From assembly GCA_965661285.1 (NCBI GenBank), contig CBFIDD010000006.1, forward strand, positions 61,887 through 125,886: a stretch of DNA of 64,000 nt. The letters run 5' to 3'. This stretch comes from Poseidonia sp. Lineage in GTDB: Archaea > Thermoplasmatota > Poseidoniia > Poseidoniales > Poseidoniaceae. Below the pieces are notes generated by a model. The model ran no database searches. It saw only the letters and a program-made list of their open reading frames with translations, and was not told the DNA's origin. Shown here one piece after another: positions 20,052 through 56,857 of the stretch (its first letter is position 1; each line of letters starts with the position of its first letter). The position numbers and the translations under genes were made by a program.

Positions 20052-20069
20052 AATTTGGACGTGAACGAC

Positions 20070-23000
20070 ATGAAGAAAACCCTGACCGCCACCAGCCTAT
20101 TGCTCGTATTCCTCTTCTCCCTGACCTCGCCGCTGGCCAACGTACTCCACGACCACCAAGAGGCGAGCGATACCTCTGCCCGCTCCACAGCGTGCACGGG
20201 CTATGTTTGCATCAACGAAGTCATTCCAAACCCAAACGGTCGCGACGATGGAACCTACCCGGACGGCGAGTGGTTTGAACTCTACAACAGCGGCCCGGTC
20301 GACGTTGATTTGACGGGATGGAAAGTGACCACCAGCGCCCAAAAATCACTGGATTTTGATTCAGCTACCATCGTGGGCTACCAAGCTGGCAACAGTTCCA
20401 CCTGGACCATCAGTCCCGGTGAATACGTGGTGATTGCTCGAAACGGAGACAGCAACTTCTACATGACGAACACGGGGTTGAGTATGACCTTGGTGGACGG
20501 CAGCAACAACAACCTCCACCAAGCGACATGGGGACAGGTCTTGTCGGGAAAAAGCTACGAACAAGACCCCAGCAGTGCCACGGCCAACTGGATTCAAACC
20601 AACAACCCAACCCCCGGTCAAATCAACACCGCAGCAGCGACCAACAACCTGATTCCCGGCGACCTCATCATTACCGAAGTGATGGCCAATTCATGGCCGT
20701 CCTACGATAACGAATCGTGGCCCGGTGGCGAGTGGGTTGAAATCCTCAACACCGGGTCGAGCGATATTGACCTGACGGGGTATAGCATTGAGGATGCGGC
20801 AGGAAACGTCCTCCCGTTCAACGCCTCGCATTTGGTCAACGCCTCTCAAACCATGCTCATCGCACCCGGAGAACACCGCGCGGTCGCCGTTAACGCCACC
20901 AGCGGATACGGCGTGCTCAACAACGGTGTGGAGAGCCTCACCCTCAAGTGGCCCAATGGCAGTCGCTCGCAAGAGATTTCATGGTCGTCGACCGTGCAGG
21001 GCTTTTCCCTCATCGTATCCACCCAGTCCAGCGCTCCGTGGACGTATGCGCCCTACCCGACACCCGAAGGGATGAATCCACTGCCGCTCGAATTGATGCC
21101 GCGCCAGGTCGGCGACATTCAGATGACCGAGATACTCCCCAACGCCACCAACGACGGGGCCACCTTCCCCGACGGCGAGTGGATCGAACTCCACAACACC
21201 GGAAGCGGTACCGTTGACCTCATGGGATGGAGCATCATGGACGGCATGGGCAACTTGACCTTCCTCGACCCCGGCACCCTCGTGTTCAACACCACGCAAG
21301 GTTCGACCACCATCGATGCCGATGGCCGTCGGTTGGTGCAGTTCACCAGCCACACCGAGTTGTGGGACAATTACAACCACATCTTCCTTCGAGACGTGAC
21401 CGAACAGGTTGTGGATACCGCCGCCTACACCACGGATTACGGCGAAGACATGGCCCTGATTCGCACAAACAACCCAGCCGACCCGTGGACGCCTGCTGCA
21501 TGGAAGACGCCGGGTCAGCCCGAGCCAGGCACCATGCCATCCTCCACCACCGTACGCTTCTCTGAAATCCTGCCCGATGCTGTGGGCTCAGACAGTCAGA
21601 CATGGCCGAACGGCGAATGGATTGAGGTGTACAACTACGGCGCCACCGACGTCGATTTGGCGGGCTGGAAGCTCCAAGCCGCCTCCCGTTCATTGACCCT
21701 CCACGAATTCAACATGCCGTTGCAGGAAACCACCAACCTACGTGCAGGCGAAGTGGCCCTCATCGCCTTGAACGGAACCAGCAGTTTCTATCTCAAACAC
21801 ACCTCTTCGGATTCCATCGGTTTGGTTGACGCCTCCGGTTCAACCGTGGACACCATCGCATGGTCAGACACGGTTGAGGGCGAGTCCCTCGTCGCTCCCA
21901 ACAGCACGCATGCAGGCGTTGGCCCCAACGCAAGCTACGCTACTGGCAACTGGTTGTTGTCCGCTTGGGCCACGCCCGGCGAGGTCAATCCTGTTTGGCC
22001 CGCCTACACCGGCTCGACTGAACTCGCCATCACCGAGGTGTTGCCGTACTGTAACGACGATTCCATCGAGCCGACCGAAGACTGGGTCGAGGTTCATAAC
22101 CAAGGCTCAACACCACTGAACATCAGCCGTTGGTCGGTCATGACCGCTGACGGCGACCGACGATTCATGCGAATGGACAGTTTGTGGGCGGAAGAAAACC
22201 AAACCGCGAAACTCGTCCTGCAACCCGACGAGCGGGCCGTCTTTACGATGGAAGAATTCATCCTCACCGGCTTGGGCGATGCCTTCGAACTTCTCCACCC
22301 CGACGGCGACATTGTCGACAGCGCTGCATGGGTCGTCATCACCGATTGTCAAACCCTGATGCCGGGCGATCAAACGAGCGATGATTGGCAACACACCCTC
22401 TGGCCCACGCCAGGCCAAGCCGAGCCCGACCCCTCAAGTTTCGCCACGAAGGATGACGTCCGGTTCACGCGGCTCATGCCGTCCGGTTCGACCGACATCT
22501 CAAGCGACATGGAATTCGTTGAGGTCGCAAATCAGGGCGACAAGCTGGCCGTTCTCAACGGCTGGACGCTGCGCACAACCACCGGTGCCAACAGCATGTA
22601 CAACGCGACCATCACCGACCTGATGATACAACCCCGCACCTCCGTCCTGCTGGCCAACGATGCGGATGCACTCGGCGTCTACGAAGACGGAAGCGTGGTG
22701 GACATTGACAGCGCCCTTGACCGGACGTTTTACTTCCCCAACTCCGGTGCTGCACTCCAACTTCTTGACAGCAGCGGTGCTGAGGTTGACACACTGGTTT
22801 ACGGCAACGGGCCCGTATCGGTCTCGGGATGGAGTGGCATCGCGCTCGTTGAGCCCATTTCCAACCTCGACAACCTGATTTATCTTCGAGGCAGTGGTTG
22901 CGGAGAAACACCCGACACCAACACGGTACAGGATTGGCACGAGCAGTGGAGCCGCCTGGGCGGCAGCACCTTCTGCTTTGATACGACCATTGCAGCCAAC

Positions 23001-24947
23001 GGCGCCATCACCCCGTTGATCGGCCCGGAGAACGGTCTGGTCGACCTGTTGGCATGGATAGATGGGGCCACAACCTCGCTTCACGTTCACATGTACCAAC
23101 TTCAAGAGGTGCACCTGGTCGAAGCCATGATCAGCGCTCAGAACCGTGGCGTGGACGTGAACGTTGTCCTCGACTACGGCGACAACTGGTGGAGTGAATT
23201 CGCTCTTGATACGCAGCGCGGCATGGCGACAAGCCTGCTCGCGGCCGGCGTGGATGTGAAGTGGTTTGGCGATGCGGGTGAAAACCCCTACGCCTACATC
23301 CACAGCAAGGTCGGCGTTCGGGACAACGAAAGTGTGTGGATCGGTTCGGGCAATTGGAAATCGTCCTCGCATCCAGCACCCGGCGAGGCTGGAAATCGCG
23401 ATTGGGGTGTGCTCGTTGCGGATGAAGGCTTGGCCACGATGGTGCTCAATCACCTCGTCTTTGATGAAAACGTTGCTCGGACCCACGTCACGCCGGTCCA
23501 AGCCTCGGACGCACCCAGCGGTTGGAGCATGCCCGCCTCCGGTGCCATCGTGGGCGAGACGGCCACCGCCATCGAAGGCGACTTTGAGGCCAACCTGCTG
23601 GTCTGCCCCGACAACTGCATCGATGAAATCGTCGATGTTTTGGACGGTGCGGAAACTGAAATTCTACTGTCCCTCCAGTACCTCGATACGGATTGGTCTT
23701 GGGGATGGGGAGACAACCCCATACTCGAAGCGTTGGAGGATGCTGCTGCGCGAGACGTCCGTCTTCGCTTGATGTTGAACGGCGCCTACCTCGACGAGGA
23801 CATCCAAAGCGCAGTGGACCTGTTCAATGAGGAATGGAACTTCACCAAGGGCTACGACACATCTGCCATCGTGATGAGCAGCGACGATACGGTCACGAAG
23901 TTGCACAACAAGGGCATCATCGTCGACGGTGAACACGTGCTCGTCTCTTCCATCAACTGGGGAGATTCAGCACTTGTCCGCAACCGAGAGATGGGGCTGC
24001 TCATTTCCAGTCCAACCGTGGCGCAGGTCTACATGGATTCGTGGCACGACGATTGGCAACGTGTTGACAACACCACCGACACCGACCAAGACCGGCTTCT
24101 CGATGCGTGGGAGGTGTTACACGGCCTGAACAGAACCCAACGCAGTGTGGTGGGCGAGGCAACGAGCGATGAATCACAGGTGGACATTGACGACGATGGA
24201 CTCACCAACTTTGCCGAGCAACTCCACGGCGGCGACCCAAACATGGCCGATACGGATGGCGACTGCATCCCCGACGGTTTGGAAGTCGCATGGGCGCAAT
24301 CCAGCGCCCTGAACAGCGGCGTGGAGACCATCTCGCCGAGCGCCGCCCTCTCCATGTGGGACGCTGACCAAGACGGTCAGAACGATAGCGAGGTGCTCGG
24401 TTGTGATTTGGGAGGTATTGACATCGTGCCAGTCGACAACACCACACCTGAATCGACCGATGACGATGACGATGGCGTTCCCAACGAGGACGACCAGTGC
24501 CCCGACACACCAGCCAATGTAGCGACAGACAGCAGCGGCTGTTCCGCCGACCAGCGAGCTGCCCTCGTGGAAGACAGTTCGGAGAGCACCGGCGGAGACT
24601 CTGCACAGTCGTTCTTCCTCATCCTCATGTTGTTCGCCCTGGCCCTGGCGGGCGGAACGTATGTGGTTCTGCGAGGAAAGCAGAACGAAGCAGCAGAGGT
24701 CAAGGACGCCATCAGTGAAACCGCTTTCGCAGAAGTCTCAACCACGCCGGTGAGCAACGAACACTGGCAGCAACCCGTTCTGGACGGAACGGGAAGCACC
24801 GGCGTGACGCCTGAAATGTTGGCACGTGTTCCCGGTTGGACCGCTGATATGGTTGAACAATACCTCCTCCAAGGTTGGACGATTGACCAGTTGGCCACCT
24901 ACTATCAGGAACAGGTGGCCCAGCACGAGAAGCAAGAGCAACATTGA
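20070..24947 (+). CDS. Secreted, C-terminally anchored protein with 6 lamin-tail domains and 2 PLD (HKD) domains (nuclease or phospholipase)
   Basis: Signal peptide from ATG 20070; six I(N/T/S)E.....EW(V/I)E(L/V)xN-type LTD starts; HSKVGVRD (23301) and HNKGIIVD (23904); DxDxDG/TSP3-like repeats; TM FFLILMLFALALAGGTYVVL. Confidence 0.88.
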   Translation: MKKTLTATSLLLVFLFSLTSPLANVLHDHQEASDTSARSTACTGYVCINEVIPNPNGRDDGTYPDGEWFELYNSGPVDVDLTGWKVTTSAQKSLDFDSATIVGYQAGNSSTWTISPGEYVVIARNGDSNFYMTNTGLSMTLVDGSNNNLHQATWGQVLSGKSYEQDPSSATANWIQTNNPTPGQINTAAATNNLIPGDLIITEVMANSWPSYDNESWPGGEWVEILNTGSSDIDLTGYSIEDAAGNVLPFNASHLVNASQTMLIAPGEHRAVAVNATSGYGVLNNGVESLTLKWPNGSRSQEISWSSTVQGFSLIVSTQSSAPWTYAPYPTPEGMNPLPLELMPRQVGDIQMTEILPNATNDGATFPDGEWIELHNTGSGTVDLMGWSIMDGMGNLTFLDPGTLVFNTTQGSTTIDADGRRLVQFTSHTELWDNYNHIFLRDVTEQVVDTAAYTTDYGEDMALIRTNNPADPWTPAAWKTPGQPEPGTMPSSTTVRFSEILPDAVGSDSQTWPNGEWIEVYNYGATDVDLAGWKLQAASRSLTLHEFNMPLQETTNLRAGEVALIALNGTSSFYLKHTSSDSIGLVDASGSTVDTIAWSDTVEGESLVAPNSTHAGVGPNASYATGNWLLSAWATPGEVNPVWPAYTGSTELAITEVLPYCNDDSIEPTEDWVEVHNQGSTPLNISRWSVMTADGDRRFMRMDSLWAEENQTAKLVLQPDERAVFTMEEFILTGLGDAFELLHPDGDIVDSAAWVVITDCQTLMPGDQTSDDWQHTLWPTPGQAEPDPSSFATKDDVRFTRLMPSGSTDISSDMEFVEVANQGDKLAVLNGWTLRTTTGANSMYNATITDLMIQPRTSVLLANDADALGVYEDGSVVDIDSALDRTFYFPNSGAALQLLDSSGAEVDTLVYGNGPVSVSGWSGIALVEPISNLDNLIYLRGSGCGETPDTNTVQDWHEQWSRLGGSTFCFDTTIAANGAITPLIGPENGLVDLLAWIDGATTSLHVHMYQLQEVHLVEAMISAQNRGVDVNVVLDYGDNWWSEFALDTQRGMATSLLAAGVDVKWFGDAGENPYAYIHSKVGVRDNESVWIGSGNWKSSSHPAPGEAGNRDWGVLVADEGLATMVLNHLVFDENVARTHVTPVQASDAPSGWSMPASGAIVGETATAIEGDFEANLLVCPDNCIDEIVDVLDGAETEILLSLQYLDTDWSWGWGDNPILEALEDAAARDVRLRLMLNGAYLDEDIQSAVDLFNEEWNFTKGYDTSAIVMSSDDTVTKLHNKGIIVDGEHVLVSSINWGDSALVRNREMGLLISSPTVAQVYMDSWHDDWQRVDNTTDTDQDRLLDAWEVLHGLNRTQRSVVGEATSDESQVDIDDDGLTNFAEQLHGGDPNMADTDGDCIPDGLEVAWAQSSALNSGVETISPSAALSMWDADQDGQNDSEVLGCDLGGIDIVPVDNTTPESTDDDDDGVPNEDDQCPDTPANVATDSSGCSADQRAALVEDSSESTGGDSAQSFFLILMLFALALAGGTYVVLRGKQNEAAEVKDAISETAFAEVSTTPVSNEHWQQPVLDGTGSTGVTPEMLARVPGWTADMVEQYLLQGWTIDQLATYYQEQVAQHEKQEQH

Positions 24948-46872: not shown

Positions 46873-46920
46873 ACATACCACTGGGCGCGGGTCGTTGAAG
46901 AATGTAGCCCAGACAATTCA

Positions 46921-49900
46921 TCAATCATCAAAAAAATCCGAATCATCACCGTCAAACGAAGGGACTTCTGCTTTTACAAGTCGCCAATGCGTGAAATTGT
47001 TTGGGTTATATTCCTCATCGCGATCGGAAGCTGCAGTGTGCCACGGAATGCGTGGCCTGTGGTCTAGATTGGAATGAAGCCAGTCAACTTTTGTTTGGTC
47101 CTCAGCCAAATCCGAATGGAAATCATCTAGACTCGATTTCAGTTCATCCGCATATTGTTTCAACTCATTTGTGAGCAAAATCGGTATTTGCCGATTGTCT
47201 GGATTAGAACTGATGACAACTTGGAGGCTTGCTGGGACGAATAACTCTGACAAGAGGTTTGCAAATGCAACCTCCAATTGGAGTTTGCTATACATATCAA
47301 ACGAAGGAACCTCGGTATTGTACGGCAGTCCTAATTCTTCCATAAGATTGCGCTTCAATCGAACGAGCGTATAATTCCAAACGGTGGATATCGCTGCGTT
47401 TTCCTGGTCTCGTAATTGGTCTTGCAACACATATCGCCCGTGTTCGACCATTCCTTCCAGTGAAACTACGCGCTGTATTGCGTTGAAAAGATCCTCCTGG
47501 GAGAAATTCTCTTTTGAGGACAGTGTCATACAAACCGACAAGTCAAATTTGAGACTCCGAATGAATTCAGTGAGCTGGATGAATTGCGACAATGGAATTC
47601 GTGGAGAGGCTTTTGTATTTCCAAACCTGTAGTGATAGGGTTTGAGACCACCTTTGAGATGAGCATCTGCACAAGCATCAAAGAATAGTTGGCGTAATTC
47701 GTCCGCACTCTCAGAATCCTTGTTCGGTTTCAAGAAAACCGATTTTACACCTTTCTTGACCACGGCGTCAAGGAAGATGTTGTTCTCAACGGCGATGTCC
47801 GCTTCTGTGAATCTTGGCGAACCATCCTCCTTCTTCACGAACTCAAAGTTAGCAACACCTTTTTTGTTATCAATTGCGTTCTTCAATTCATGGCGAGGCA
47901 GGTTCAAAACCCGTTTGGCTTCCTTCATCCAAAATTCGGGCTGACTTAACGTACGTTCTCGCACCTGCGCAACAGATTGTCGTTGCTTCGAAGACAAGTG
48001 CTGCTCAAACCAATCAAAGAATTTGTTTTCTCTTTGATATTGCATAGCGTTCTCGTCTGAGAGGAAGATGACAAACTTTAGTCCATCATCGAGGGGGATT
48101 TCCTTGGGTTTTTGGACCATGGTAACCCCGTGTTCGCCGTTGAATGTGCAGTCATAAATTCGCTCACACAATTTTTCAATGTCCATGTTCTTTTGAATGA
48201 ACTCTTGAAGCGTGGGGCCAGTTACGCCACCAATTCGGATTGTACGCATCTGCCTTTTGGCAACCGGTTTGTCCACATCAACATCCATAACGGAGAAAAA
48301 TCGGGTTACCAACTCAACAAGAACGGGACTTGCAAGTGAGGGGTGGTGCTCGAAAAGACTGTCGAGCGAGGATTGGTCTCCAAATACTGCGTAGTCTTCG
48401 TCCTCTCTATCGTCTTGTTGTTTCACGAGTAGTTTTCTGATACTCGGCCGCATCGTTTTTCCTATCAACCAGTCGGAGTTCGATTCCGGCGAGGGTGGAC
48501 GGTCGTTGAGCAACAACAGGCAAAGTGGGTCTAACTTTGTTAACGTAGAAACATCAACATAATCTTCTGAGTTGCGGGATCGGCCAATGAAATCCAGCAT
48601 GTCGTTAATGAGAGTCTGTTTGTATGGGTAGACATCGGCGATTTCAACAAAGCGATTTTCTCCATCCACTTTCTCGGAAAGAACGTTAAACAATGAGCGA
48701 ACGGAATACCTGTCCTCTTTCAAGAGGCGATGAATATCCTCGCTTCTTGAATTTTTAATCAGTTGGAGGCCTGCTCGCCGTATCAGATAGACGGGCATCC
48801 TATCCTTCAACATAAGAGTAAGAAGAGGTACGCTGTGTTCACTCTCTTCCCCGATATCGCCTTCGACTGTTGAGCTGAGGTTTTCCACGAATCCTTTTGA
48901 TTTGGTAGGGTGTTTGCGATACATAGCAATAGGCAGTCTCAAAATACATTCTGTTTGATGCTTGGATTCATAGGCCCAGCCCGGTAAAGCCAATTGAGGT
49001 TTGATAGCGTTCCACATTGCATTTAGTGATTCAGTTGCAAATCGCTCGTGAGTGAAATGGTCAATACCATCCAACCAGAATTCTGTGTTCTCTCCGATGA
49101 GATTAAACCAATAATCTTCGTCTTTTTGTTCGGCCCCAGTGTTGAAGATCTTTTCGAGTACTTCGAGCCCAGCAAGCACGCTGTTATCAGTTAGAATTGT
49201 TGAATTTTTTGAACTAAATCCAAAGTTCATAAATAATTCACTCCAGGCGTCAGCGGATTTTTCTTGCAGGTCACCACCGAAGAGATTGGTTTTGAAATAT
49301 TGTGCAAGGAGGTTGCCCTCATCTTTGTGTTTATCAGGCAACCATTCTGGGCTTTGAGACAGTAGAGCCAAGCAAGCATTGAATTCATTCACAAAATACT
49401 CGTAAACCACCGGTTTGAGGATGATGACATCATCATCCCTAATTTTCTTGCATTCAATTTGCTTCCTCAGGCCGACCATCCGCTCTAACCGTAAGCGGAG
49501 TGGATGAGTCTTATCGAAATGGTGTCCATCGCCGGCAATGGAACCAATGAAATAATTCACTATTTTTTTGCGTAGGTCCGAAGGTGATATTGAATCAATA
49601 TCGTCATTGTTGAGTTCATCAGTGAATGCTCCAATAAACATCTTCACTGCAAGGAAAGGGGCTCGACTTTTTGACAAAACCTTCCCAATCTTTTCATTTT
49701 TTGCAGCCAGTGTATGTTCAATGTGAGCGCCCTGATAGAAAATATTCGCAACCGGACTGTTTGATTTAATCATCTTTATCAGACTAAGGATCATTGAGAT
49801 GTATGGAGCATAGAGATTTGACGGGTCCTCATTGTCAACCTGTCTCTCAATAAGTGCATTGTGTGCTTCAATCAATTGCTTAAAATCGTCTGGATGAAGA

Positions 49901-52900
49901 GATTCAAGACGGGGATCCGATGGAAGTTCAATAAACTCGGGTGCCTTTGTATCATACAAATCAAAATCATTTGTATCTGCTAGGGCGAGTATGAGGTGTT
50001 CCTTTGGCCGGGAAAGAATGACATTTGCGAAACGCGTTCGTTGACCCAACAGCCGCTCATATTTTGATTCAAATGGGTCTTTTTTCATACCAGCAGTCTC
50101 GTCGTTGAACATGTACGGTTCATCGGGATCTAAGTCGTCAAGTGAGTTTTGGATGGTATCCTTGTCGATAGACCAAGGAGATATTGCCATGATTGAATCG
50201 TATTCCAATCCTTTTATGCTGATTGGATGCCAAAGAGCGATATGAATAGGGGGGGTTTGCTTCCCAAATAATTCGCGTACATCATCATGCACTTTTTTGC
50301 TCGGCAACACCATGGTAGGAGCACCGGGTGTGCGGAATAGGACGGCCCCAATCTTCACAATCTCGTCTTTCGTCAGTCGTTCAGAAATCAATCGCACACC
50401 ATGCGGTCTACCATTTTCCATAGCTTCAGTTTGAAGGCGTACTGAATCTTTACTCGCAACAATGCTTGCGGTGCCATCTGTTTTTCTCTCCCTTGGGTAG
50501 ACTTGAGATACGGAAGTTGTGAAAGAATCTTTGATGAGGTCAACGATGACTGGAATGTTCCGTTCAACAAGCGTGAGTGATTTTCTCCGATGATTATCGG
50601 CCATGCGGGCGAGACGGGAGCCACGTATTTCATCGCCGTCCCACCAAGTATTGACATTGGATGAAATCAAAGTTGAATGAGGATATTTTTCCCTCAATCC
50701 CTTAAGCAATTCAGCAGCCTTGCTGAAATGGTCTCTCCAATTGAACGGCTCCCAATCGAGGGTTTGTTCGTCATCGCCTGTGAAGAACATGGCATTGATT
50801 TCCCCCTTATGAAGAAGGAGAGCCAACTTGAGCACACTGAAATTTAAGTCTTGGATTTCATCAATCACCGTGATGTCCGACGAATAAGCAACCAATCGCT
50901 CTGCGATGGATGGCTCTTGGCTTTCTCGCTCAAAAATCTCGCGGATGACATCCTCACAAATCTTGGCTTGCGTGTAGAGCCTCAGATCTCTCCCAATGAG
51001 TTGTTGATCTTCGAGGATGTTGATGAATTGTTGGGCATCTCGCCGTGCGTTGTTTGAACGGCTTTTGTCGTTCAATTGATAGAATATCGAGAGGTATTCT
51101 TGTCTACTCGTTCCTGTATTTTCGAGGTATTCGTTCAAATTTCGACAAAGGTGTCCGTTGCGCTTCAAGATTTTGTTGTTGAATTCGTACCACAATCCGT
51201 GAGCGCTGTATCTTGAAATAAGCGGTTGAGAAAAATTGTGTTCCTTGAAAATTGAGATGAATCGCTCTTTCGTTAGGATTTGTGAGGTAAAATCATCCCA
51301 TGTCAAATCAACTTCTCCGAGCACATGGTTTCGTAATGACCAGAGAAGTTGGTCAACGGATAATGATTTGAGTTGTGCAGTTTCATAGCCTTGTTTGTTT
51401 TCAAAATACTCATCGTATCGTTTGGTGAATGATTCGCTTAGGTAAGGCGACATGGTGAGGAACAGAACAGATGGGCTTTCTTGGTAGGTTGAACCCGCAG
51501 AAACATCCAACATTTTATGAATGAAATTTGCAGCGATGTGTGTTTTTCCAGTACCTGGCGGGGCGTTGAGGAATAGAGGACTGCCTTCGAGCGGCAGTTC
51601 ACTAATAATTTCTTTTTGATCGGTGTTCAATCCCTGGAGGGGTGAAAAACTATCGCTGCCAGAGGTTGATGGTTCCACCTTGTTAAGCGAACAAGAGAAT
51701 TTCATCGCACCCTTCCACCGAGATGGTATTTCTGGATGATCACGGTAGAGGTAGAGATTGCTGACAGCAATAAATGGAGAAACCCAACGAACGTATTGAT
51801 TTTGCAGCGATTTGTCCAAAGGCACTTCATCGAGATACCTCAGAGCGAGTGAGGGGTAGCGGCCGACCAGTTTCTCAGCCGTCATCAAATCATTTTTCGG
51901 TCCATCCTTTGAACGCACCCAAACACAGTATTCTGCGAAGAGCTGGTGTGAGAATGAGAAATATTCTGGGAATTTATTGAACAGCCCATATTGAACCCCG
52001 TAGTGGATAAAGAGCGACAGAACGGATTCATCGTCTTCATTGTCCTCTTTTGAGCGCTGAATTCCGGCCGAATTATATTCTTCTCTTTCTTCATCAGCGT
52101 TCATGAGTAATGAAGATGGGACAATCAACCGCGAACCATACCGATTTCGTCGCGCAATTGCCTGTGTGTAAAAACGGGTTTCAATGAGGTCCTTCCACTT
52201 TGAACGGAGATAGATTTTCGCTTCTTTTTCACTTTTCGGAATACTGCCTATGGCGGATGTGTCGGATTTGTAAACACGTTGAATAATTTCACGACGAATC
52301 AACTTGTACATGACATCGGTTCCAAGGGACATTTCTTGTTTCTTCATCACCCAGGAAAGTGGCGTTAATCCTGTGTCGAGTAGGTTAAATTCCATTCGAT
52401 TGAAGCGTGCGTTCAATTGAGTGAGGAATTTGTCTGAGGGACGATAACGAGAACGCGGCCCCATAAAACGAGCCATAACCGGAAAAGCATGCAACATGTA
52501 TGAGAGCCCCCACATTTGTTTTTCAACCAGTGTCGTAGTAGGTTTGAGTGAATTTACCCTATCGGAGACTGCTCCCTTGGCCAACGGTGGGAGGTCAATG
52601 ACATGCATGTTTTGGGGGCTTGCAGGTTGACTTTGGAGAATGTTGAGTTCATGTGTTCTGCAGGTCCAAACAACAGGAACATCATGCCTGGTGAGTTCAT
52701 CCGCCAAATCGCTCCATGCTCGAACAATGACATCATGGAATTGGCTGTCTACGCCGTACGTCAACAAATCGAGTGTATCAACGAGAAGCGTTAAACCCCT
52801 GCCATGGTCGGAATGGAATTGGACGAACTCTTCTAAACCAAGGTTGGAAGAAGCGAGGTCATCGTTGACGTGACATCGAAGAATGATTTTCCATAGGTCT

Positions 52901-53313
52901 TTCCAATTTCTTATTTTAACTTCCTCTGGTCGGGAGTAAAATTGCATCGTGCACAAGTGAAGGACACGCTCACTACCCCCCTCCTCGACCGCTGCTTTGG
53001 CGATCCTGCTGAGTGCTATTGATTTACCAGCAGAGGGGAGTCCTTGGATGATGATGTTTCGGCTACCGTTTGGAGGGTGTTGAACCAATGCAGCCATTGT
53101 ATGGGTAAAATTTCTCAAATTAATTTGGTTGAGCAGATGTTGACGCGACATGCCTACGTGATTCACCCCAAACTGCTTCCAAAATCCGGCACTCAAGTCA
53201 TCAATGAGTGCTTCCATGTTCGGCCCATCAAGGACGATGTAATCCTGTGGAATCTTGGCATATGCGAGAATATCGCTGTGGCACGCAGTGATGAATTTCT
53301 CGAAATCAATCAT
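46921..53313 (-). CDS. 2130-aa NACHT/STAND-like NTPase fused to an SF1 (UvrD-like) helicase and a long helical C-terminus
   Basis: NTPase 1: IIIQGLPSAGKS, LLVDTLD, VWTCR, IDLPPL, FSFSHQLFAEY. Helicase: LNTDQ, APPGTGKT, VIDEIQD, TGDDEQ, IKGLEYD, LSRPKEHL. Confidence 0.85.
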   Translation of the reverse strand: MIDFEKFITACHSDILAYAKIPQDYIVLDGPNMEALIDDLSAGFWKQFGVNHVGMSRQHLLNQINLRNFTHTMAALVQHPPNGSRNIIIQGLPSAGKSIALSRIAKAAVEEGGSERVLHLCTMQFYSRPEEVKIRNWKDLWKIILRCHVNDDLASSNLGLEEFVQFHSDHGRGLTLLVDTLDLLTYGVDSQFHDVIVRAWSDLADELTRHDVPVVWTCRTHELNILQSQPASPQNMHVIDLPPLAKGAVSDRVNSLKPTTTLVEKQMWGLSYMLHAFPVMARFMGPRSRYRPSDKFLTQLNARFNRMEFNLLDTGLTPLSWVMKKQEMSLGTDVMYKLIRREIIQRVYKSDTSAIGSIPKSEKEAKIYLRSKWKDLIETRFYTQAIARRNRYGSRLIVPSSLLMNADEEREEYNSAGIQRSKEDNEDDESVLSLFIHYGVQYGLFNKFPEYFSFSHQLFAEYCVWVRSKDGPKNDLMTAEKLVGRYPSLALRYLDEVPLDKSLQNQYVRWVSPFIAVSNLYLYRDHPEIPSRWKGAMKFSCSLNKVEPSTSGSDSFSPLQGLNTDQKEIISELPLEGSPLFLNAPPGTGKTHIAANFIHKMLDVSAGSTYQESPSVLFLTMSPYLSESFTKRYDEYFENKQGYETAQLKSLSVDQLLWSLRNHVLGEVDLTWDDFTSQILTKERFISIFKEHNFSQPLISRYSAHGLWYEFNNKILKRNGHLCRNLNEYLENTGTSRQEYLSIFYQLNDKSRSNNARRDAQQFINILEDQQLIGRDLRLYTQAKICEDVIREIFERESQEPSIAERLVAYSSDITVIDEIQDLNFSVLKLALLLHKGEINAMFFTGDDEQTLDWEPFNWRDHFSKAAELLKGLREKYPHSTLISSNVNTWWDGDEIRGSRLARMADNHRRKSLTLVERNIPVIVDLIKDSFTTSVSQVYPRERKTDGTASIVASKDSVRLQTEAMENGRPHGVRLISERLTKDEIVKIGAVLFRTPGAPTMVLPSKKVHDDVRELFGKQTPPIHIALWHPISIKGLEYDSIMAISPWSIDKDTIQNSLDDLDPDEPYMFNDETAGMKKDPFESKYERLLGQRTRFANVILSRPKEHLILALADTNDFDLYDTKAPEFIELPSDPRLESLHPDDFKQLIEAHNALIERQVDNEDPSNLYAPYISMILSLIKMIKSNSPVANIFYQGAHIEHTLAAKNEKIGKVLSKSRAPFLAVKMFIGAFTDELNNDDIDSISPSDLRKKIVNYFIGSIAGDGHHFDKTHPLRLRLERMVGLRKQIECKKIRDDDVIILKPVVYEYFVNEFNACLALLSQSPEWLPDKHKDEGNLLAQYFKTNLFGGDLQEKSADAWSELFMNFGFSSKNSTILTDNSVLAGLEVLEKIFNTGAEQKDEDYWFNLIGENTEFWLDGIDHFTHERFATESLNAMWNAIKPQLALPGWAYESKHQTECILRLPIAMYRKHPTKSKGFVENLSSTVEGDIGEESEHSVPLLTLMLKDRMPVYLIRRAGLQLIKNSRSEDIHRLLKEDRYSVRSLFNVLSEKVDGENRFVEIADVYPYKQTLINDMLDFIGRSRNSEDYVDVSTLTKLDPLCLLLLNDRPPSPESNSDWLIGKTMRPSIRKLLVKQQDDREDEDYAVFGDQSSLDSLFEHHPSLASPVLVELVTRFFSVMDVDVDKPVAKRQMRTIRIGGVTGPTLQEFIQKNMDIEKLCERIYDCTFNGEHGVTMVQKPKEIPLDDGLKFVIFLSDENAMQYQRENKFFDWFEQHLSSKQRQSVAQVRERTLSQPEFWMKEAKRVLNLPRHELKNAIDNKKGVANFEFVKKEDGSPRFTEADIAVENNIFLDAVVKKGVKSVFLKPNKDSESADELRQLFFDACADAHLKGGLKPYHYRFGNTKASPRIPLSQFIQLTEFIRSLKFDLSVCMTLSSKENFSQEDLFNAIQRVVSLEGMVEHGRYVLQDQLRDQENAAISTVWNYTLVRLKRNLMEELGLPYNTEVPSFDMYSKLQLEVAFANLLSELFVPASLQVVISSNPDNRQIPILLTNELKQYADELKSSLDDFHSDLAEDQTKVDWLHSNLDHRPRIPWHTAASDRDEEYNPNNFTHWRLVKAEVPSFDGDDSDFFDD

Positions 53314-55213
53314 TCGTTATACCTCCTTGCAGCCATTCATTAATTAATTTGATAAGCATGCTATCCCATTTCGGCTGGTCTGTTGGCCAGTCGAGTTGGG
53401 GGCTTTTGAATGAAAATCCATCTGGAAGATTGGATAAAACATCGTTTAAAGGTTGTAAGAATTTTGACTCTATTTCACCGATACTGACAATACTGCTTTT
53501 GTCAAAAACCTTGAACAACCCCATCCATCTCGACCCCCAACCAAGCTCGGTAGAGGTAGCATACAGGTACCGATGACACCCAATTGCTTTCTCGAGAGCA
53601 TTCAAAAAATCTTCCTGGAGGATCAAACAGTAATGTGCGGGTTGGAACATCGGACTTCCCTGCACGCGTTCACCCTCAAATATCTCATCCATACAGTCTT
53701 CAAAATCATCCAATGATTTTGCATCGTGTCCAATTTCGTTCAGTAACTCAAGGATTGTGTGAAAAAATTTGTACCCTCTGCTTGATGGATTATACAAAAT
53801 GGAACGTATGCTTCTCATTTGATTTCCGTCGTTAGGTAAATTATGTCGACCATACATCCATACCTCGTAGGTGAAAAGGGCAAGTTCGTCCTCGTGATTG
53901 TATGAGTCCCAAATTTGCTCAATCGTTTCGAGTGGAATTGAGGGCAATTCTTTGAGTGATTTGCCACGAGGAGCGGCCTTGTCCATGAGATAAGCGCAAT
54001 TTATAGCAAAGAGGATGCTTTTGTGATCGTGCAGGAGACGGGTTTGGTTTAACAGGACTTGACCGCTCCTCCAGATTTTTTGGATTACCCGTTCAATCGC
54101 ACCTGCTTCTTCGTAAGTGAGGTGGCCTCTGATTTTACCGCGCTGGTAAACATCCCAAAGTTCGGGGATTTTCTCCAATGATTGAAGAGGTTTCATCAAA
54201 GATGTAAGGTTGTATCCCGCATTCTTCTTGGGAGAGGCCCCTATGTCTCCGAGTGTACGGAAATACAGGAAGGAGGAATTGGAGACGACCGACGCATCGA
54301 GGTAATTGCTTGAATAGGGAATTTCGGTTTGATCACGCCTTTGCAAACGGGAAGTGATCTCATTTTGACTTTCAACAAGGGCAAAATCGAGCGATTTGAT
54401 TCCTTCAGCCAATCTATTCGTGAGGTCGAACAGACTTGCCATTTCAAATGCATATTTTTCATGGATATTTTCTGGGGCAAGAGGTAAAGCAAGACTCATG
54501 TTGAGTGCTTGCCTGTTTTCTTTGCGGCCCTCTAGAAGGTCAAGATATTGCTCATCTAAATCATCTAGATCATGATATTCAAAGGCATTGGTCAGGAGTG
54601 AGAGGAAAAAATGAGGTGATTGGTGATGTTCTGGTCGTTGACCTACCTCGGTTGAGATGTCGTTCAACAATTGACACAAAGTTAACTCCGCACCGTCCCA
54701 CTCAAAGGAAAACTCGTCGATTTTTATCTTCTTTGAATGGTTTCTTCGGTCAAGGATAACCATTCCCGAGTAAACACCGTTCCGAAGTCCATCTCGAACG
54801 ACATCTATTTTGCCTCTTTTCATGATCGAGTGAATGGAATAAACTTCTGGTGTCGGATTGTTTGCTTCTTTGCGAGGTTTCTCTCTCAATACTTGTCGTG
54901 AAAAATGCTTGACCCACTCAGTTTCTAGCTTCATTAATCGATTCGCTGTATCAATTGAGGTCGAGGATGGCTGCAGGATATACAGTAATTTGGAGCCCCC
55001 AAGAGAGGCATTGGAGCCAGCAGGCGCACCCGTTTCAACAACATTGAGGACGGGCCTAAGGCCATCTTGGCTTTCCCATGCATGTTTGAAACCAACTCGG
55101 GCATCGTTTGTAGAGTTGGAGGACCTATTGAAATCAAACTCTGGCTGTTCATCTTCAAATACGACCTTCCTCGCCAGAGCGATGATTTCCCGGCGGGATT
55201 TCGCATTCATCAA
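53306..55213 (-). CDS. Hypothetical protein (635 aa), translationally coupled to the NACHT-helicase gene
   Basis: Long ORF in the AT-rich island; 8-bp overlap with the next gene, with a GGAGGT SD inside its 3' end; no family recognised. Confidence 0.8.
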   Translation of the reverse strand: MMNAKSRREIIALARKVVFEDEQPEFDFNRSSNSTNDARVGFKHAWESQDGLRPVLNVVETGAPAGSNASLGGSKLLYILQPSSTSIDTANRLMKLETEWVKHFSRQVLREKPRKEANNPTPEVYSIHSIMKRGKIDVVRDGLRNGVYSGMVILDRRNHSKKIKIDEFSFEWDGAELTLCQLLNDISTEVGQRPEHHQSPHFFLSLLTNAFEYHDLDDLDEQYLDLLEGRKENRQALNMSLALPLAPENIHEKYAFEMASLFDLTNRLAEGIKSLDFALVESQNEITSRLQRRDQTEIPYSSNYLDASVVSNSSFLYFRTLGDIGASPKKNAGYNLTSLMKPLQSLEKIPELWDVYQRGKIRGHLTYEEAGAIERVIQKIWRSGQVLLNQTRLLHDHKSILFAINCAYLMDKAAPRGKSLKELPSIPLETIEQIWDSYNHEDELALFTYEVWMYGRHNLPNDGNQMRSIRSILYNPSSRGYKFFHTILELLNEIGHDAKSLDDFEDCMDEIFEGERVQGSPMFQPAHYCLILQEDFLNALEKAIGCHRYLYATSTELGWGSRWMGLFKVFDKSSIVSIGEIESKFLQPLNDVLSNLPDGFSFKSPQLDWPTDQPKWDSMLIKLINEWLQGGITND

Positions 55214-55385
55214 GGCCTCTAATACGCCACACTATTTATGCTAATTGAAGATGAAATCGTATGCATTGATAGTAATCACAACTGATTTACCTATTTCAAC
55301 CACCACCGGAGGAGGTATGGCCGGCCGAATTGTGCTTCCAACACTCAATCCAAATATGCTAGAAACCGCTGACCTCGAATAAAGG

Positions 55386-55679
55386 TGAAACGGCGCAAAC
55401 GAACTCGTCAATTCAAGGCAGGTTGTTCATGACGGCTCAATCCGGCCTTGTGATGATTCAATATGGGCTCGGCCGGAATTGAACCGGCGCAAACGAACTC
55501 GTCAATTCAAGGCAGGTTGTTCGTTGCTGGTTCATTCCGTCCTTGAGTTGCAGAGATATGGGCTCGGCCGGAATTGAACCGGCGCAAGCGAACTCGTCAA
55601 TTCAAGGCAGGTTGTTCGTTGCTGGTTCATTCGGTCCTTGAGTTGAAGAGATATGGGCTCGGCCGGAATTGAACCGGCG
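55386..55679. repeat. ~3 tandem 95-bp units each containing the tRNA-Val 3' end (T-arm + acceptor strand)
   Basis: ATATGGGCTCGGCCGGAATTGAACCGGCG at 55461, 55556 and 55651; CGAACTCGTCAATTCAAGGCAGGTTGTTC recurs with the same period. Confidence 0.93.
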
Positions 55680-55726
55680 ATCTTCGCCATGTGAAGGCGA
55701 CGTCATAACCCCTAGACCACGAGCCC
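55654..55726 (-). tRNA. tRNA-Val(CAC)
   Basis: Reverse complement GGGCTCG TGGTCTAGGGGTTATGACG TCGCC TT CAC AT GGCGA AGATC GCCGG TTCAATT CCGGC CGAGCCC A. Confidence 0.96.
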
Positions 55727-55771: not shown

Positions 55772-56857
55772 TCAACGGTGCTCGTTCAAATGCACGACGC
55801 CGACCTCGAGTCGCTCGTGGGTTGGATGAACTTCAACGAGGAGCACGGGGACCTCGATGACCTCAGCCAAATCCTCGGCCAGCGAGAGCGGCAACTCAAT
55901 GCGCTGGTGGGACGCATCGTAGCGAAGCCAACCATCGGCCATCCCCAGTTCTGCCTTGAGTTCTGCCATGTCGTCTTGGGCGTCTTTAAGGGAAGTCGGA
56001 ATCGCACCAAAGAGCACCGTGTCGTCATCACTGAGCACCTCGTAGGGGCGAAGCGTTGCTTGTCCTCGGCGCTTGAAGCGGTTGCGAAGTTGACCCGCAT
56101 CCTTGTACTTCGCCGTGCAGAATTTCAGGTGATAGGGCTTGTCAGCAGCAGCCTCTTTGAGGCGAACTGCGAGTTCAGCCGAGCCTTCAGCAGCCGCCGT
56201 GATGCCGCCGCTCAAGTTGAATCCACGCACGTCCATGTTCTCTTGGTTACCCACCGTGATTTCCAGTTCGTTGAGGTTGAGAAACGAGACGGGGACGGTG
56301 GTCAAGTCATCGAGCAGCGCAAAGAGTTGGGCTTCCTTGTCCGGCTCACACGGGAGTTCCACGCCGACTTCGATGCCGTGTTGTGCGCAAGCTTCCATGG
56401 TCGCTCGGTACTTCGTGGTCGTACCGTCCAGAAGGTGGAAGCGAATCTCGTCCAGTCCTGCGGCACCAAAATCTGCGGCTCGGTCGGGGTCAAAGGGAAT
56501 GGAGGTGTAGGCGTGAATGTGATGGCCTGGGCCAAACGCCGCCTTGAGTTGGCGAACCGCTTCCAGTGTTTTTTCGAGGTCCAGCATCGGGTCGCCCCCG
56601 GTGATGCCGGTTCCCGTAGCGTTCATGGCGTGTCCTTCCTCAATGACCTCATCCCACGACGTGCATCGACGCTCGTTCGCAAACATATCGGGCGTCTCAC
56701 GACGGTTTTCAGAAAGCGGACAGTAATCGCAACCCCAGTGGCATTTTCCGGTGACAAACAGAACAAGTTTGCTGCCTTGCTGGCACTGGACACAGCCTTC
56801 CGCTTCGCCCTCTTCTGCGGGCAAGACTTCGGTAGCCATGGGCAAACTTCGCATCAT
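55772..56857 (-). CDS. Radical SAM protein (archaeal, PFL-activase-related family)
   Basis: GCVQCQQGSKLVLFVTGKCHWGCDYCPLS (CxxxCxxC), GITGGDP, GLDEIRFH, FLNLNELE. Confidence 0.9.
   Translation of the reverse strand: MMRSLPMATEVLPAEEGEAEGCVQCQQGSKLVLFVTGKCHWGCDYCPLSENRRETPDMFANERRCTSWDEVIEEGHAMNATGTGITGGDPMLDLEKTLEAVRQLKAAFGPGHHIHAYTSIPFDPDRAADFGAAGLDEIRFHLLDGTTTKYRATMEACAQHGIEVGVELPCEPDKEAQLFALLDDLTTVPVSFLNLNELEITVGNQENMDVRGFNLSGGITAAAEGSAELAVRLKEAAADKPYHLKFCTAKYKDAGQLRNRFKRRGQATLRPYEVLSDDDTVLFGAIPTSLKDAQDDMAELKAELGMADGWLRYDASHQRIELPLSLAEDLAEVIEVPVLLVEVHPTHERLEVGVVHLNEHR

What the first reader, a model, noticed from the sequence alone, without database searches (positions are those of the whole stretch)
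46921..53313. NLR-like NACHT NTPase fused to an SF1 helicase in one 2130-aa protein
Seen: two complete P-loop modules. The first has STAND/NACHT hallmarks: GLPSAGKS near 53040, hhhhDTLD, TCR, and the winged-helix-type FSHQLFAEY near 51940. The second has ordered SF1 motifs Q, I (APPGTGKT ~51550), II (DEIQD ~50860), III (GDDEQ), V (KGLEYD ~50205) and VI (SRPK ~50010). About 1000 aa of apparently helical sequence follow. Known: prokaryotic STAND proteins (Avs, bNACHT) and SF1 helicases (Gabija GajB) are antiviral, but usually as effector-NTPase-sensor proteins or as separate polypeptides. Inference: a NACHT with only ~85 aa before it and an internal helicase is an unusual architecture, possibly a sensor-activated oligomeric helicase in an undescribed defence system.
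Basis: partly seen in the sequence, partly recalled or inferred. Interest (0 to 1): 0.78.

Follow-up and report, generated by a model that had tools for sequence, protein, structure and literature searches.

The report
Archaeal NLR-like ATPase fused to helicase
A marine archaeon carries a strain-variable two-gene insert whose 2130-residue protein joins an immune-receptor-type ATP switch to a DNA-helicase motor and a fast-evolving tail, an undescribed architecture that most likely serves in defence against viruses or other invading DNA.

Summary
ORF 46921-53313 (-) encodes 2130 aa with two P-loop modules, and their catalytic residues are invariant in 20 of 20 diverse full-length relatives. The N-terminal module is a NACHT-like STAND NTPase. 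Its profile matches Pfam-labelled NACHT proteins (hhalign 99.1%), but the strict NACHT Walker-B signature is only partly met. Residues 562-851 pass Pfam UvrD-helicase. The last ~1000 aa are hypervariable and match nothing.

The gene is translationally coupled to a hypervariable 634-aa partner of no known family. The pair forms a low-GC ~8.4-kb insert with its own TATA box, beside tRNA-Val and its att-like repeats. The site is empty in 14 of 20 same-genus loci. Cassettes only about 26-41% identical occupy the same site in relatives. Metagenome contigs show filled and empty alleles.

The family is small and patchy: 11 of 301 genomes of the order, none elsewhere in the phylum sample, and none in viral contigs.

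PADLOC finds no named system. Known defence genes lie nearby in only two loci, so a defence role is inferred, not shown. Structure prediction, complex prediction, the Atlas and earlier findings were closed.

The parts
46912..55300 (.). Inserted two-gene cassette (~8.4 kb), GC 43-48% against 55-59% in the flanks
   Evidence: GC profile. Left junction at 46911/46912 and right junction near 55300 come from comparison with empty sites in same-genus genomes. Metagenome contigs join 46911 or 46912 to 55464 or 55654.
46921..53313 (-). BIG: 2130-aa STAND-SF1 helicase fusion protein (P0001)
53104..53313 (-). N-terminal extension, residues 1-70; too short for an enzymatic effector and poorly conserved across the family
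   Evidence: Mean pairwise identity 0.10 in A4
52534..53103 (-). NACHT-like nucleotide-binding domain, residues 71-260: Walker A GLPSAGKS, Walker B DTLD, sensor-1 WTCR, LPxL
51679..52533 (-). Residues 261-545, presumed helical plus winged-helix part of the STAND module, with invariant H456 in FSHQLFAEY
   Evidence: H456 is invariant in 20 of 20. The fold was not tested.
49939..51678 (-). UvrD/Rep-type SF1 helicase core, residues 546-1125, motifs Q, I, II, III, IV, V, VI
   Evidence: Pfam PF00580 at 562-851, 35.3 bits against cut-off 23. Motif residues are invariant. Motif names are recalled.
46924..49938 (-). Hypervariable C-terminal region, residues 1126-2130, with one conserved block around NNIFLDA (1844-1850) and YHYRFGN (1893-1899)
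   Evidence: Mean pairwise identity 0.07-0.12 against 0.22-0.28 for the two NTPases. dN/dS 0.15-0.17. Conserved block in A6. No Pfam or PDB match.
53306..55210 (-). UP: 634-aa partner protein of no known family. Its stop overlaps the BIG start by 8 nt.
53321..53326 (-). GGAGGT Shine-Dalgarno-like site 8 nt before the BIG ATG, inside the end of UP
55233..55239 (-). ATAAATA TATA-box-like element 23-29 nt upstream of the UP ATG, inside the insert
   Evidence: Its reading as an archaeal promoter is an inference.
55654..55726 (-). tRNA-Val(CAC); its 3' end faces the cassette
55340..55623 (.). Three tandem 95-nt units, each carrying a copy of the tRNA-Val 3' end (exact 25-mers at 55465-55489 and 55560-55584), plus a degenerate copy near 55316-55335
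46882..46899 (.). Degenerate tRNA-3'-end-like sequence 13 nt outside the left junction, also present at empty sites
   Evidence: The pattern was defined after seeing the site, so the statistic is indicative only.

Best explanation
The locus is an accessory, horizontally exchanged two-gene cassette of a marine archaeon. The archaeon is most likely a Poseidoniales (Marine Group II) member, judged from the record titles of relatives. Its main product is an NLR-like protein. A NACHT-like STAND ATP switch (residues ~71-545) is fused to an intact UvrD-type SF1 motor (~546-1125) and to a ~1000-aa hypervariable region. It is co-translated with a hypervariable 634-aa partner. I read it as an undescribed conflict or defence system. 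In this model the variable C-terminal region, alone or with the partner, recognises an invader-derived cue. That releases the STAND module to bind ATP and oligomerise, which brings several helicase motors together on invader DNA or replication intermediates. The motors then unwind or strip it, or hand it to a nuclease that is not yet recognised. Shown: the architecture, conservation of both catalytic sites, purifying selection along the whole length, the coupled operon, insertion/absence polymorphism, patchy distribution, low GC, and no match to named systems. Inferred: the defence role, oligomerisation, the direction of signalling, and binding between partner and BIG. I put about 0.6 on a conflict or defence role of some kind and about 0.4 on this particular order of events.
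For: Architecture: Pfam UvrD-helicase at 562-851 passes its cut-off. The N-terminal profile reaches Pfam-labelled NACHT proteins. Four of 9 members hit Pfam NACHT, best E 3.4e-7. hhalign gives 99.1%, E 1.8e-18, over 163 columns covering Walker A, Walker B, sensor-1 and LPxL. The best PDB hit is the Orc1 AAA+ domain, E 9e-8, from the sister clade of STAND.
Both sites look active: the Walker A, Walker B and sensor-1 residues and SF1 motifs I-VI are invariant in 20 of 20.
Sensor-like tail: mean pairwise identity is 0.07-0.12 after residue 1125, against 0.28 (NBD) and 0.22 (helicase). The tail is still under purifying selection, dN/dS 0.15-0.17.
Operon: the same 8-nt stop/start overlap occurs in the window, L001 and L016. 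UP lies directly upstream of BIG in 25 of 56 metagenome loci and in L001, L002, L003, L016 and L021.
Accessory and mobile: the family was found in 11 of 301 genomes of the order and 4 of 401 of the phylum sample, all within the order. The site is empty in 14 of 20 same-genus loci. Cassettes only ~26-41% identical sit at the same tRNA-Val site, with flanks 70-87% identical. Filled and empty alleles occur in metagenome contigs of two studies. In a second genus the partner-less version was absent from between M28 and M50 peptidase genes in all 20 fetched loci; 13 had the two genes under 100 nt apart.
Cassette GC is 8-10 points below the flanks in several loci.
Defence neighbours: a DNA methylase plus an unknown gene lie right after BIG in L002. 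A pVip-like radical-SAM gene plus a kinase lie 2.7 kb from BIG in L071.
PADLOC gave no hit above P-loop level for BIG and none for UP.
Against: No experiment or structure supports any step. Known defence genes lie next to the cassette in only 2 loci. The other cluster representatives of flanking ORFs scanned (61 in all) were housekeeping genes or had no match, so defence-island enrichment is not shown. Most contigs are too short to judge. No nuclease or other killing effector was recognised in BIG or UP. No N-terminal effector exists, which departs from characterised Avs and bNACHT proteins. dN/dS gives no sign of positive selection at the divergence tested, and dS is near saturation. The strict NACHT Walker-B signature is not met. 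The winged-helix assignment rests on a motif only.
Confidence: 0.4

Rival explanations
1. It is a defence system wired the other way. The SF1 helicase acts as the nucleic-acid sensor, as GajB is said to sense DNA ends. The STAND module amplifies the signal by oligomerising. The effector is hidden in the variable C-terminal region or in the partner protein.
For: A review passage states that GajB, a UvrD-type protein, senses DNA termini. The C-terminal region holds a strongly conserved block, NNIxLDA...YHYRFGN, shared by cassettes only 24% identical, which could be an active site. UP keeps invariant E256, R288 and H546 among 31 sequences.
Against: If the C-terminus or UP were an enzyme effector, one would expect more conserved catalytic residues. 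Nothing after residue 1125 is invariant across the 20 family members. UP is missing altogether in the genus-g2 type and is replaced by an unrelated ~516-aa protein in another subtype. No nuclease, protease, TIR or SIR2 profile matches.
Confidence: 0.2
2. It is a selfish mobile cassette. The Orc1/Cdc6-like ATPase plus helicase would serve the cassette's own replication, excision or integration at tRNA-Val, and UP would be an unrecognised recombinase.
For: The insert sits beside tRNA-Val among direct copies of the tRNA 3' end. At least three divergent cassette types use the same site. The best PDB match of the N-terminal domain is Orc1, a replication initiator. Many metagenome contigs end within a few hundred bases of the cassette ends.
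Against: The own genome holds a single copy. No integrase, transposase or Rep profile matches in Pfam, NCBIfam or PHROGs. UP has no invariant Tyr or Ser nucleophile among 31 sequences. No terminal inverted repeats or target duplication were found at the junctions. None of the 56 contigs shows a circular overlap. None of the 422 pattern matches in viral contigs encodes a relative. In other lineages the cassette lies away from any tRNA. In genus g2 BIG is inserted alone.
Confidence: 0.15
3. It is an accessory genome-maintenance helicase that resolves replication or transcription conflicts or takes part in repair. The STAND module is a regulator, and there is no role in conflict with invaders.
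For: UvrD/Rep-type helicases have such roles in bacteria (listing and abstracts). The whole protein is under purifying selection.
Against: Presence is patchy: 3 of 42 genomes of the own genus. The site is empty in 14 of 20 same-genus loci, including relatives with 95-97% identical flanks. Low GC, allelic replacement by versions ~26% identical, and a hypervariable half of the protein are not what a maintenance enzyme shows.
Confidence: 0.1

Closest known systems
Bacterial NLR-related NACHT proteins (bNACHT; Kibby et al., passages read)
   Same: A NACHT-type nucleotide-binding domain acts as the central switch. A long variable region lies C-terminal to it. The genes are accessory.
   Different: There is no N-terminal effector; only ~70-90 poorly conserved residues precede the P-loop. 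A complete SF1 helicase sits between the STAND module and the variable region. Walker B is D-T-h-D-[L/I], not D[GAS]hDE. The host is archaeal. The gene is usually coupled to a partner gene. No PADLOC hit.
Avs (antiviral STAND) families
   Same: STAND NTPase with a large, diverse sensor-like C-terminus; single-gene or two-gene accessory loci.
   Different: No nuclease, TIR, SIR2 or protease effector is present. PADLOC Avs models do not match P0001. One relative (L017) gives Avs1b at E 5.6e-4 over 35 residues. A 2026 survey of about 90 STAND families mentions helicases only as phage targets in the passages I read; its supplements were closed.
Gabija GajB and other UvrD-type defence helicases
   Same: PF00580-type SF1 motor with motifs I-VI. 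There is a weak PADLOC GajB alignment over 562-851 (E 3e-4).
   Different: No GajA (OLD-type nuclease) partner. The helicase is fused to a STAND module. Pfam does not detect UvrD_C. phmmer finds no solved helicase at E<=1.
Orc1/Cdc6 AAA+ initiators
   Same: The best solved-structure match of the N-terminal profile is yeast Orc1, residues 408-572, E 9e-8, covering Walker A to Walker B.
   Different: Sensor-1 is Arg in a WTCR motif, as in STAND proteins, and the closest profile matches in the large library are NACHT proteins. The gene is not core and not present in every genome.

Membership tests
NACHT clade of STAND NTPases | Walker A GxxxxGK[ST] with an AAA+-type core | tested here: met
   G-x-P-S-x-G-K-[ST]; S94, G96 and K97 are invariant in 20 of 20. 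It aligns to the NACHT Walker A in hhalign.
NACHT clade of STAND NTPases | Walker B signature D[GAS]hDE: a small residue after the Mg-binding Asp, then two acidic residues (definition read) | tested here: not met
   The family has D179-T180-h-D182-[L/I]. T replaces G/A/S, and the second acidic residue is hydrophobic in the members seen.
NACHT clade of STAND NTPases | Significant match to the NACHT profile | tested here: inconclusive
   The window's own protein gives only AAA_16 (E 0.046) and nSTAND5 (E 0.078). Four of 9 family members hit PF05729, best E 3.4e-7. Profile-profile comparison with six Pfam-NACHT modules gives 99.1%, but those targets were picked from the family's own search hits.
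STAND NTPases in general | Sensor-1 Arg after strand 4 (hhhT/S-x-R), followed by a helical domain and a winged helix with a conserved His | tested here: inconclusive
   W-T/S-C/S-R with R219 invariant and H456 invariant. The hhalign alignment stops at residue ~259. The fold could not be predicted. The consensus motifs are recalled.
SF1A UvrD/Rep helicases | PF00580 N-terminal domain above the gathering score and ordered motifs Q, I, Ia, II, III, IV, V, VI | tested here: met
   PF00580 35.3 bits against 23, residues 562-851. K590, D818, E819, Q821, G846, D847, Q850, R918, K1034-E1037 and R1102 are invariant. Motif naming is recalled.
SF1A UvrD/Rep helicases | UvrD_C (PF13361) C-terminal domain | tested here: not met
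   It is not reported by Pfam at E<=1. Motifs V and VI are visible by eye only.
Gabija | GajB together with a GajA OLD-family nuclease | tested here: not met
   PADLOC GajB matches reach only E 2e-4 to 3e-2. No GajA hit. The neighbour UP has no PADLOC hit.
Avs | STAND with an N-terminal effector and a match to Avs models | tested here: not met
   No Avs model matches P0001. The N-terminal extension is ~70-90 aa with no domain hit.
Integrase-borne integrative element | A tyrosine or serine recombinase, or a transposase, inside the insert | tested here: not met
   The insert holds only UP and BIG. UP has no Pfam, NCBIfam, PHROG or PDB match. UP has no invariant Tyr or Ser in 31 sequences.

The most novel reading that the evidence does not exclude
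This is a new class of archaeal innate-immune receptor in which an NLR-type STAND switch directly gates a UvrD-type DNA motor instead of a nuclease, NADase or pore. It is specified by a hypervariable tail and an exchangeable partner protein. It is carried as a promoter-bearing mini-cassette that is swapped between strains at an att-like slot beside tRNA-Val, a form of cassette exchange for immune genes in uncultured planktonic archaea.
Probability: 0.3. Interest if true: 0.8.

Novelty: new variant of a known kind. Interest (0 to 1): 0.62.

Why it matters
STAND/NLR proteins are the shared core of innate immunity in animals, plants, fungi and bacteria. In characterised cases they signal to nucleases, NADases, proteases or pores. 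A family in which the switch is fused to an intact helicase motor would add a different output, or a nucleic-acid-sensing input, to that logic.

The family comes from Marine Group II-type archaea. These are among the most abundant surface-ocean archaea, they are uncultured, and their virus defences are barely known. The tRNA-Val site, with filled and empty alleles and cassettes about 26-41% identical in one genus, also gives a tractable natural example of gene-cassette turnover that can be followed in metagenomes.

Tried and rejected
No fold-based test of the STAND module, the C-terminal region or UP was therefore possible.

PDB sequence searches gave nothing useful for four queries. UP profile A3: best hit was a designed protein at E 0.0016. 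C-terminal block A6: best E 0.99. Helicase segment alone: 0 hits at E<=1. Whole-family profiles A1 and A4: P-loop-level hits only.

PHROGs gave only P-loop and helicase-level hits for BIG and none for UP. NCBIfam gave nothing.

The C-terminal region was searched among shorter proteins. Only 2 fragments turned up, so no other architecture was found.

An UP word search found one close relative only.

UP against the second partner type (UP2) by hhalign gave 0.2% probability, so I treat them as unrelated.

Viral contigs: 422 pattern matches, 0 relatives.

Circular-overlap test on the 56 metagenome contigs: none.

I looked for terminal inverted repeats or a target duplication at the insert ends and found none convincing.

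The radical-SAM gene next to the tRNA in the window (55772-56857) looked like a possible viperin, but it has no PADLOC hit. It is present at empty sites too, so it is not part of the finding.

Expression: no RNA holder was listed among the sequencing runs, and all runs laid were contigs. Stretches of the cassette without cover in some runs say nothing.

dN/dS gave no signal of positive selection, and dS is near or past saturation.

Literature: four full-text searches were run. Passages were read in PMC13581612, PMC7159879, bioRxiv 10.1101/2022.07.19.500537 and PMC10952713. None turned up a STAND or NACHT protein fused to a UvrD-type helicase, or this family. All other titles were seen as search listings only. 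Supplements were closed, and the STAND family tables of PMC13581612 and the NACHT clade table of the Kibby preprint could bear on this claim.

Full report
OBSERVATION. The minus-strand ORF 46921..53313 is open for 2130 codons. Pfam recognises a UvrD/REP N-terminal helicase domain at residues 562-851, 35.3 bits against a gathering score of 23. It gives only a weak AAA_16 match at the first P-loop. PADLOC gives P-loop-level matches only (GajB, MkoA, mad8; E 2e-4 to 3e-2). NCBIfam gives nothing of use.

FAMILY AND CONSERVATION. A word-based search found five full-length relatives of 2110-2145 aa at 33-82% identity (alignment A1). An exhaustive profile search with the N-terminal 560 residues (A2, 9 sequences) against 1.84 billion representatives found only 71 proteins at E<=1e-3. 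About 25 of these are 1967-2416 aa long and the rest are mostly fragments.

In an alignment of 20 full-length members at 14-82% identity (A4), the invariant columns fall into two groups. The first NTPase keeps S94/G96/K97, D179/T180/D182, R219 and H456. The helicase keeps G587/G589/K590, D818/E819/Q821/D822, G846/D847/Q850, R918, K1034-E1037 and R1102. Nothing after residue 1125 is invariant.

Mean pairwise identity in A4 is 0.28 for the nucleotide-binding domain and 0.22 for the helicase. It is 0.07-0.12 for the C-terminal ~1000 residues. Between the window and its 78%-identical relative L042, dN/dS is 0.06-0.10 for the STAND part, 0.13 for the helicase and 0.15-0.17 for the tail. The whole protein is therefore maintained by selection. 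These figures are rough because dS is about 1.

N-TERMINAL MODULE. The A2 profile's best solved-structure match is the AAA+ domain of yeast Orc1, E 9e-8, covering Walker A to Walker B. [quoted passage not shown]

The weakest significant hits in the large library are multidomain proteins. I scanned 10 of them with Pfam, and 6 pass the NACHT gathering score. They have architectures such as TIR-NACHT-FGE-sulfatase, trypsin-NACHT-FGE and NACHT-WD40, and the matched stretch coincides with their NACHT domain.

Scanned singly, 4 of the 9 A2 members hit Pfam NACHT (best E 3.4e-7), 7 hit nSTAND_NTPase5 and 4 hit AAA_16. The window's own copy reaches only E 0.046 for AAA_16.

A local hhalign of A2 against six of those NACHT modules gives 99.1% probability, E 1.8e-18, over 163 columns. 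The alignment places GLPSAGKS on the Walker A, LLVDTLDLL on 'lllLDGLdE', WTCRxxE on 'ftCRs', and I-x-LP-x-L on 'i-l-x-pL'. The targets came from the family's own hits, so this is not fully independent.

The strict NACHT signature D[GAS]hDE appears here as D-T-h-D-[L/I]. I therefore call the module NACHT-like STAND and do not file it as a NACHT sensu stricto. The winged-helix reading of FSHQLFAEY rests on the invariant His456 and on recalled motifs only. The hhalign alignment does not reach it, and no fold could be predicted.

HELICASE. Apart from the Pfam match, the domain is remote from solved helicases. phmmer finds none at E<=1. Pfam does not report UvrD_C. All ATP-binding and coupling motifs are nonetheless invariant, so I expect an active motor.

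TAIL AND PARTNER. The C-terminal region has no Pfam, PADLOC, PHROG or PDB match. It has no transmembrane segment. It was not found attached to anything else. One block, NNIxLDA...YHYRFGN (residues 1844-1899), is shared with cassettes only 24% identical.

The upstream ORF is 53306..55210 (-), 634 aa counted from the ATG. It ends 8 nt inside the BIG ORF, with a GGAGGT 8 nt before the BIG ATG. The same 8-nt overlap is seen in L001 and L016.

UP has no match in any library. It is extremely divergent, with a median pairwise identity of 17% among 31 sequences. It keeps E256, R288, F401, H546, L565 and W615.

A UP profile finds a UP gene directly upstream of BIG in 25 of 56 metagenome loci, and also in L001, L002, L003, L016 and L021. 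Other subtypes carry an unrelated ~516-aa upstream gene, in at least 7 loci (hhalign 0.2%). The 2237-2239-aa type of a second genus has no partner at all. BIG is therefore the constant core and the partners are exchangeable.

CONTEXT. The two genes lie in a GC trough of 43-48%, against 55-59% around it. On one side is a DsbD-like membrane protein gene. On the other is tRNA-Val(CAC) at 55654-55726, followed by a radical-SAM gene and pdxT.

The tRNA 3' end is repeated exactly at 55465 and 55560 in 95-nt tandem units. A degenerate copy lies near 55316. A further degenerate copy lies at 46882-46899, just outside the left junction (the pattern was chosen post hoc).

I fetched 20 same-genus loci around the DsbD-like gene. 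In 14 the order is DsbD-like, tRNA-Val, radical-SAM with no cassette. The other 6 contigs end at that point.

Alignment with the closest empty sites, whose flanks are 95-97% identical, places the insert at 46912 to about 55300. That is 9 nt past the BIG stop at one end and about 90 nt upstream of the UP start at the other. The insert includes an ATAAATA box 23-29 nt before the ATG.

Metagenome contigs from two studies join 46911 or 46912 to 55464 or 55654 with 11-12 other letters between. In X3 the shorter side of the joint is 44 letters. In X6 the sides are 22-23 letters, below the 30 that the tool advises, and I laid the contigs at 90% likeness. The same runs also hold cassette contigs, and contigs of a third study (X9) bridge both junctions.

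Two other genomes of the genus (G184, G134) and metagenome loci L042, L043, L046 and L047 carry cassettes at the same tRNA-Val site. These are only 26-78% identical to the window's. The flanking genes of G184 and G134 are 70-87% identical to the window's.

In other lineages the cassette lies elsewhere, with no tRNA nearby. In a second genus the partner-less gene sits between M28 and M50 peptidase genes. I fetched 20 genomes of that genus, chosen to exclude known carriers. None had the gene there. In 18 of them M50 lies 5-1606 nt from M28, and in 13 the gap is under 100 nt.

Many metagenome contigs are 8-9 kb long and stop within a few hundred bases of the cassette ends. That is what strain-variable islands do to assemblies.

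DISTRIBUTION. The own genome holds one copy. At order level, 11 of 301 genomes match (E<=1e-5). Ten of these are among the 149 genomes of the window's family, the eleventh is the window's own genome, and there were 0 of 149 in the other large family. Two of the 11 match the helicase part only. In the phylum sample, 4 of 401 match with the N-terminal profile, all inside the order. No relative occurs in the viral contig collection. The record titles of L001 and L003 name Candidatus Poseidoniales.

DEFENCE LINKAGE. I scanned 61 cluster representatives of flanking ORFs. Pfam and PADLOC gave mostly housekeeping families. There were two exceptions. In L002 a DNA methylase and an unknown gene lie directly after BIG. 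In L071 a pVip-like radical-SAM gene with a nucleotide kinase lies 2.7 kb away. This is suggestive at most.

INTERPRETATION. The architecture is secure. For function, the accessory status, low GC, allelic turnover at one site, a hypervariable half, a hypervariable partner, an NLR-type switch and a defence-type helicase family all point to a conflict system. I give about 0.6 to that class and 0.4 to the specific order 'variable tail or UP senses, STAND oligomerises, helicase acts'.

The rivals are as follows. The helicase may be the sensor, with a hidden effector (0.2). The cassette may be selfish and use the Orc1-like ATPase and helicase for itself (0.15). Against that rival: no recombinase, a single copy, no circles, no viral hits, and non-tRNA sites elsewhere. 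The protein may be an accessory maintenance helicase (0.1).

NOVELTY. STAND immune proteins and UvrD-type defence helicases are each known. I found no report of the two in one polypeptide, nor of this family. The searches were made, with passages read. Supplements were closed. I rate it a new variant of a known kind.

LIMITS. All fold statements are therefore sequence-based.

Noticed in passing
window 55340-55679, and L016 15255-15470: There are tandem 95-nt units, each starting with an exact copy of the tRNA-Val 3' end. The window has 3 copies plus a degenerate one. The empty sites in L022, L034 and L039 carry two copies at 95-nt spacing. They look like scars of repeated site-specific integration at this tRNA, yet no integrase is nearby.
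   Followed up: partly
window 49939-51678 compared with L042: Synonymous divergence between the window and its 78%-identical relative is 0.44 in the helicase segment, against 1.0-1.7 in the rest of the gene. This may reflect recombination within the gene or extra constraint on that DNA.
   Followed up: no
L001 5169-8029 and 11-12 related metagenome loci: In one subtype two further ORFs of no known family (556-580 aa and 397-399 aa) lie on the same strand directly upstream of UP and BIG, with GC intermediate between cassette and flanks. They may belong to the system or to the host backbone.
   Followed up: partly
L020 1549-20000 (genome G164): A distant 2112-aa relative sits in a run of same-strand large ORFs (1144, 512, 2112, 675 and more than 1660 aa). 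Those scanned have no Pfam match.
   Followed up: no
L071 8407-12127: An operon of a 740-aa unknown protein, a nucleotide kinase and a viperin-like radical-SAM enzyme (PADLOC pVip, best E 8.9e-79) lies convergent to a BIG gene. The 740-770-aa protein recurs next to BIG in 5 loci.
   Followed up: partly
window 1-9315 (-) and 20055-24947 (+): There are two other very long ORFs in the window: one of more than 3105 aa that runs off the window start, and one of 1630 aa. Neither was examined.
   Followed up: no
genus-wide: In several MAGs of the genus the contig ends within 100-450 nt of the start of the DsbD-like gene. Assemblies often break exactly at this tRNA-Val site, as expected for a population-variable island.
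   Followed up: partly
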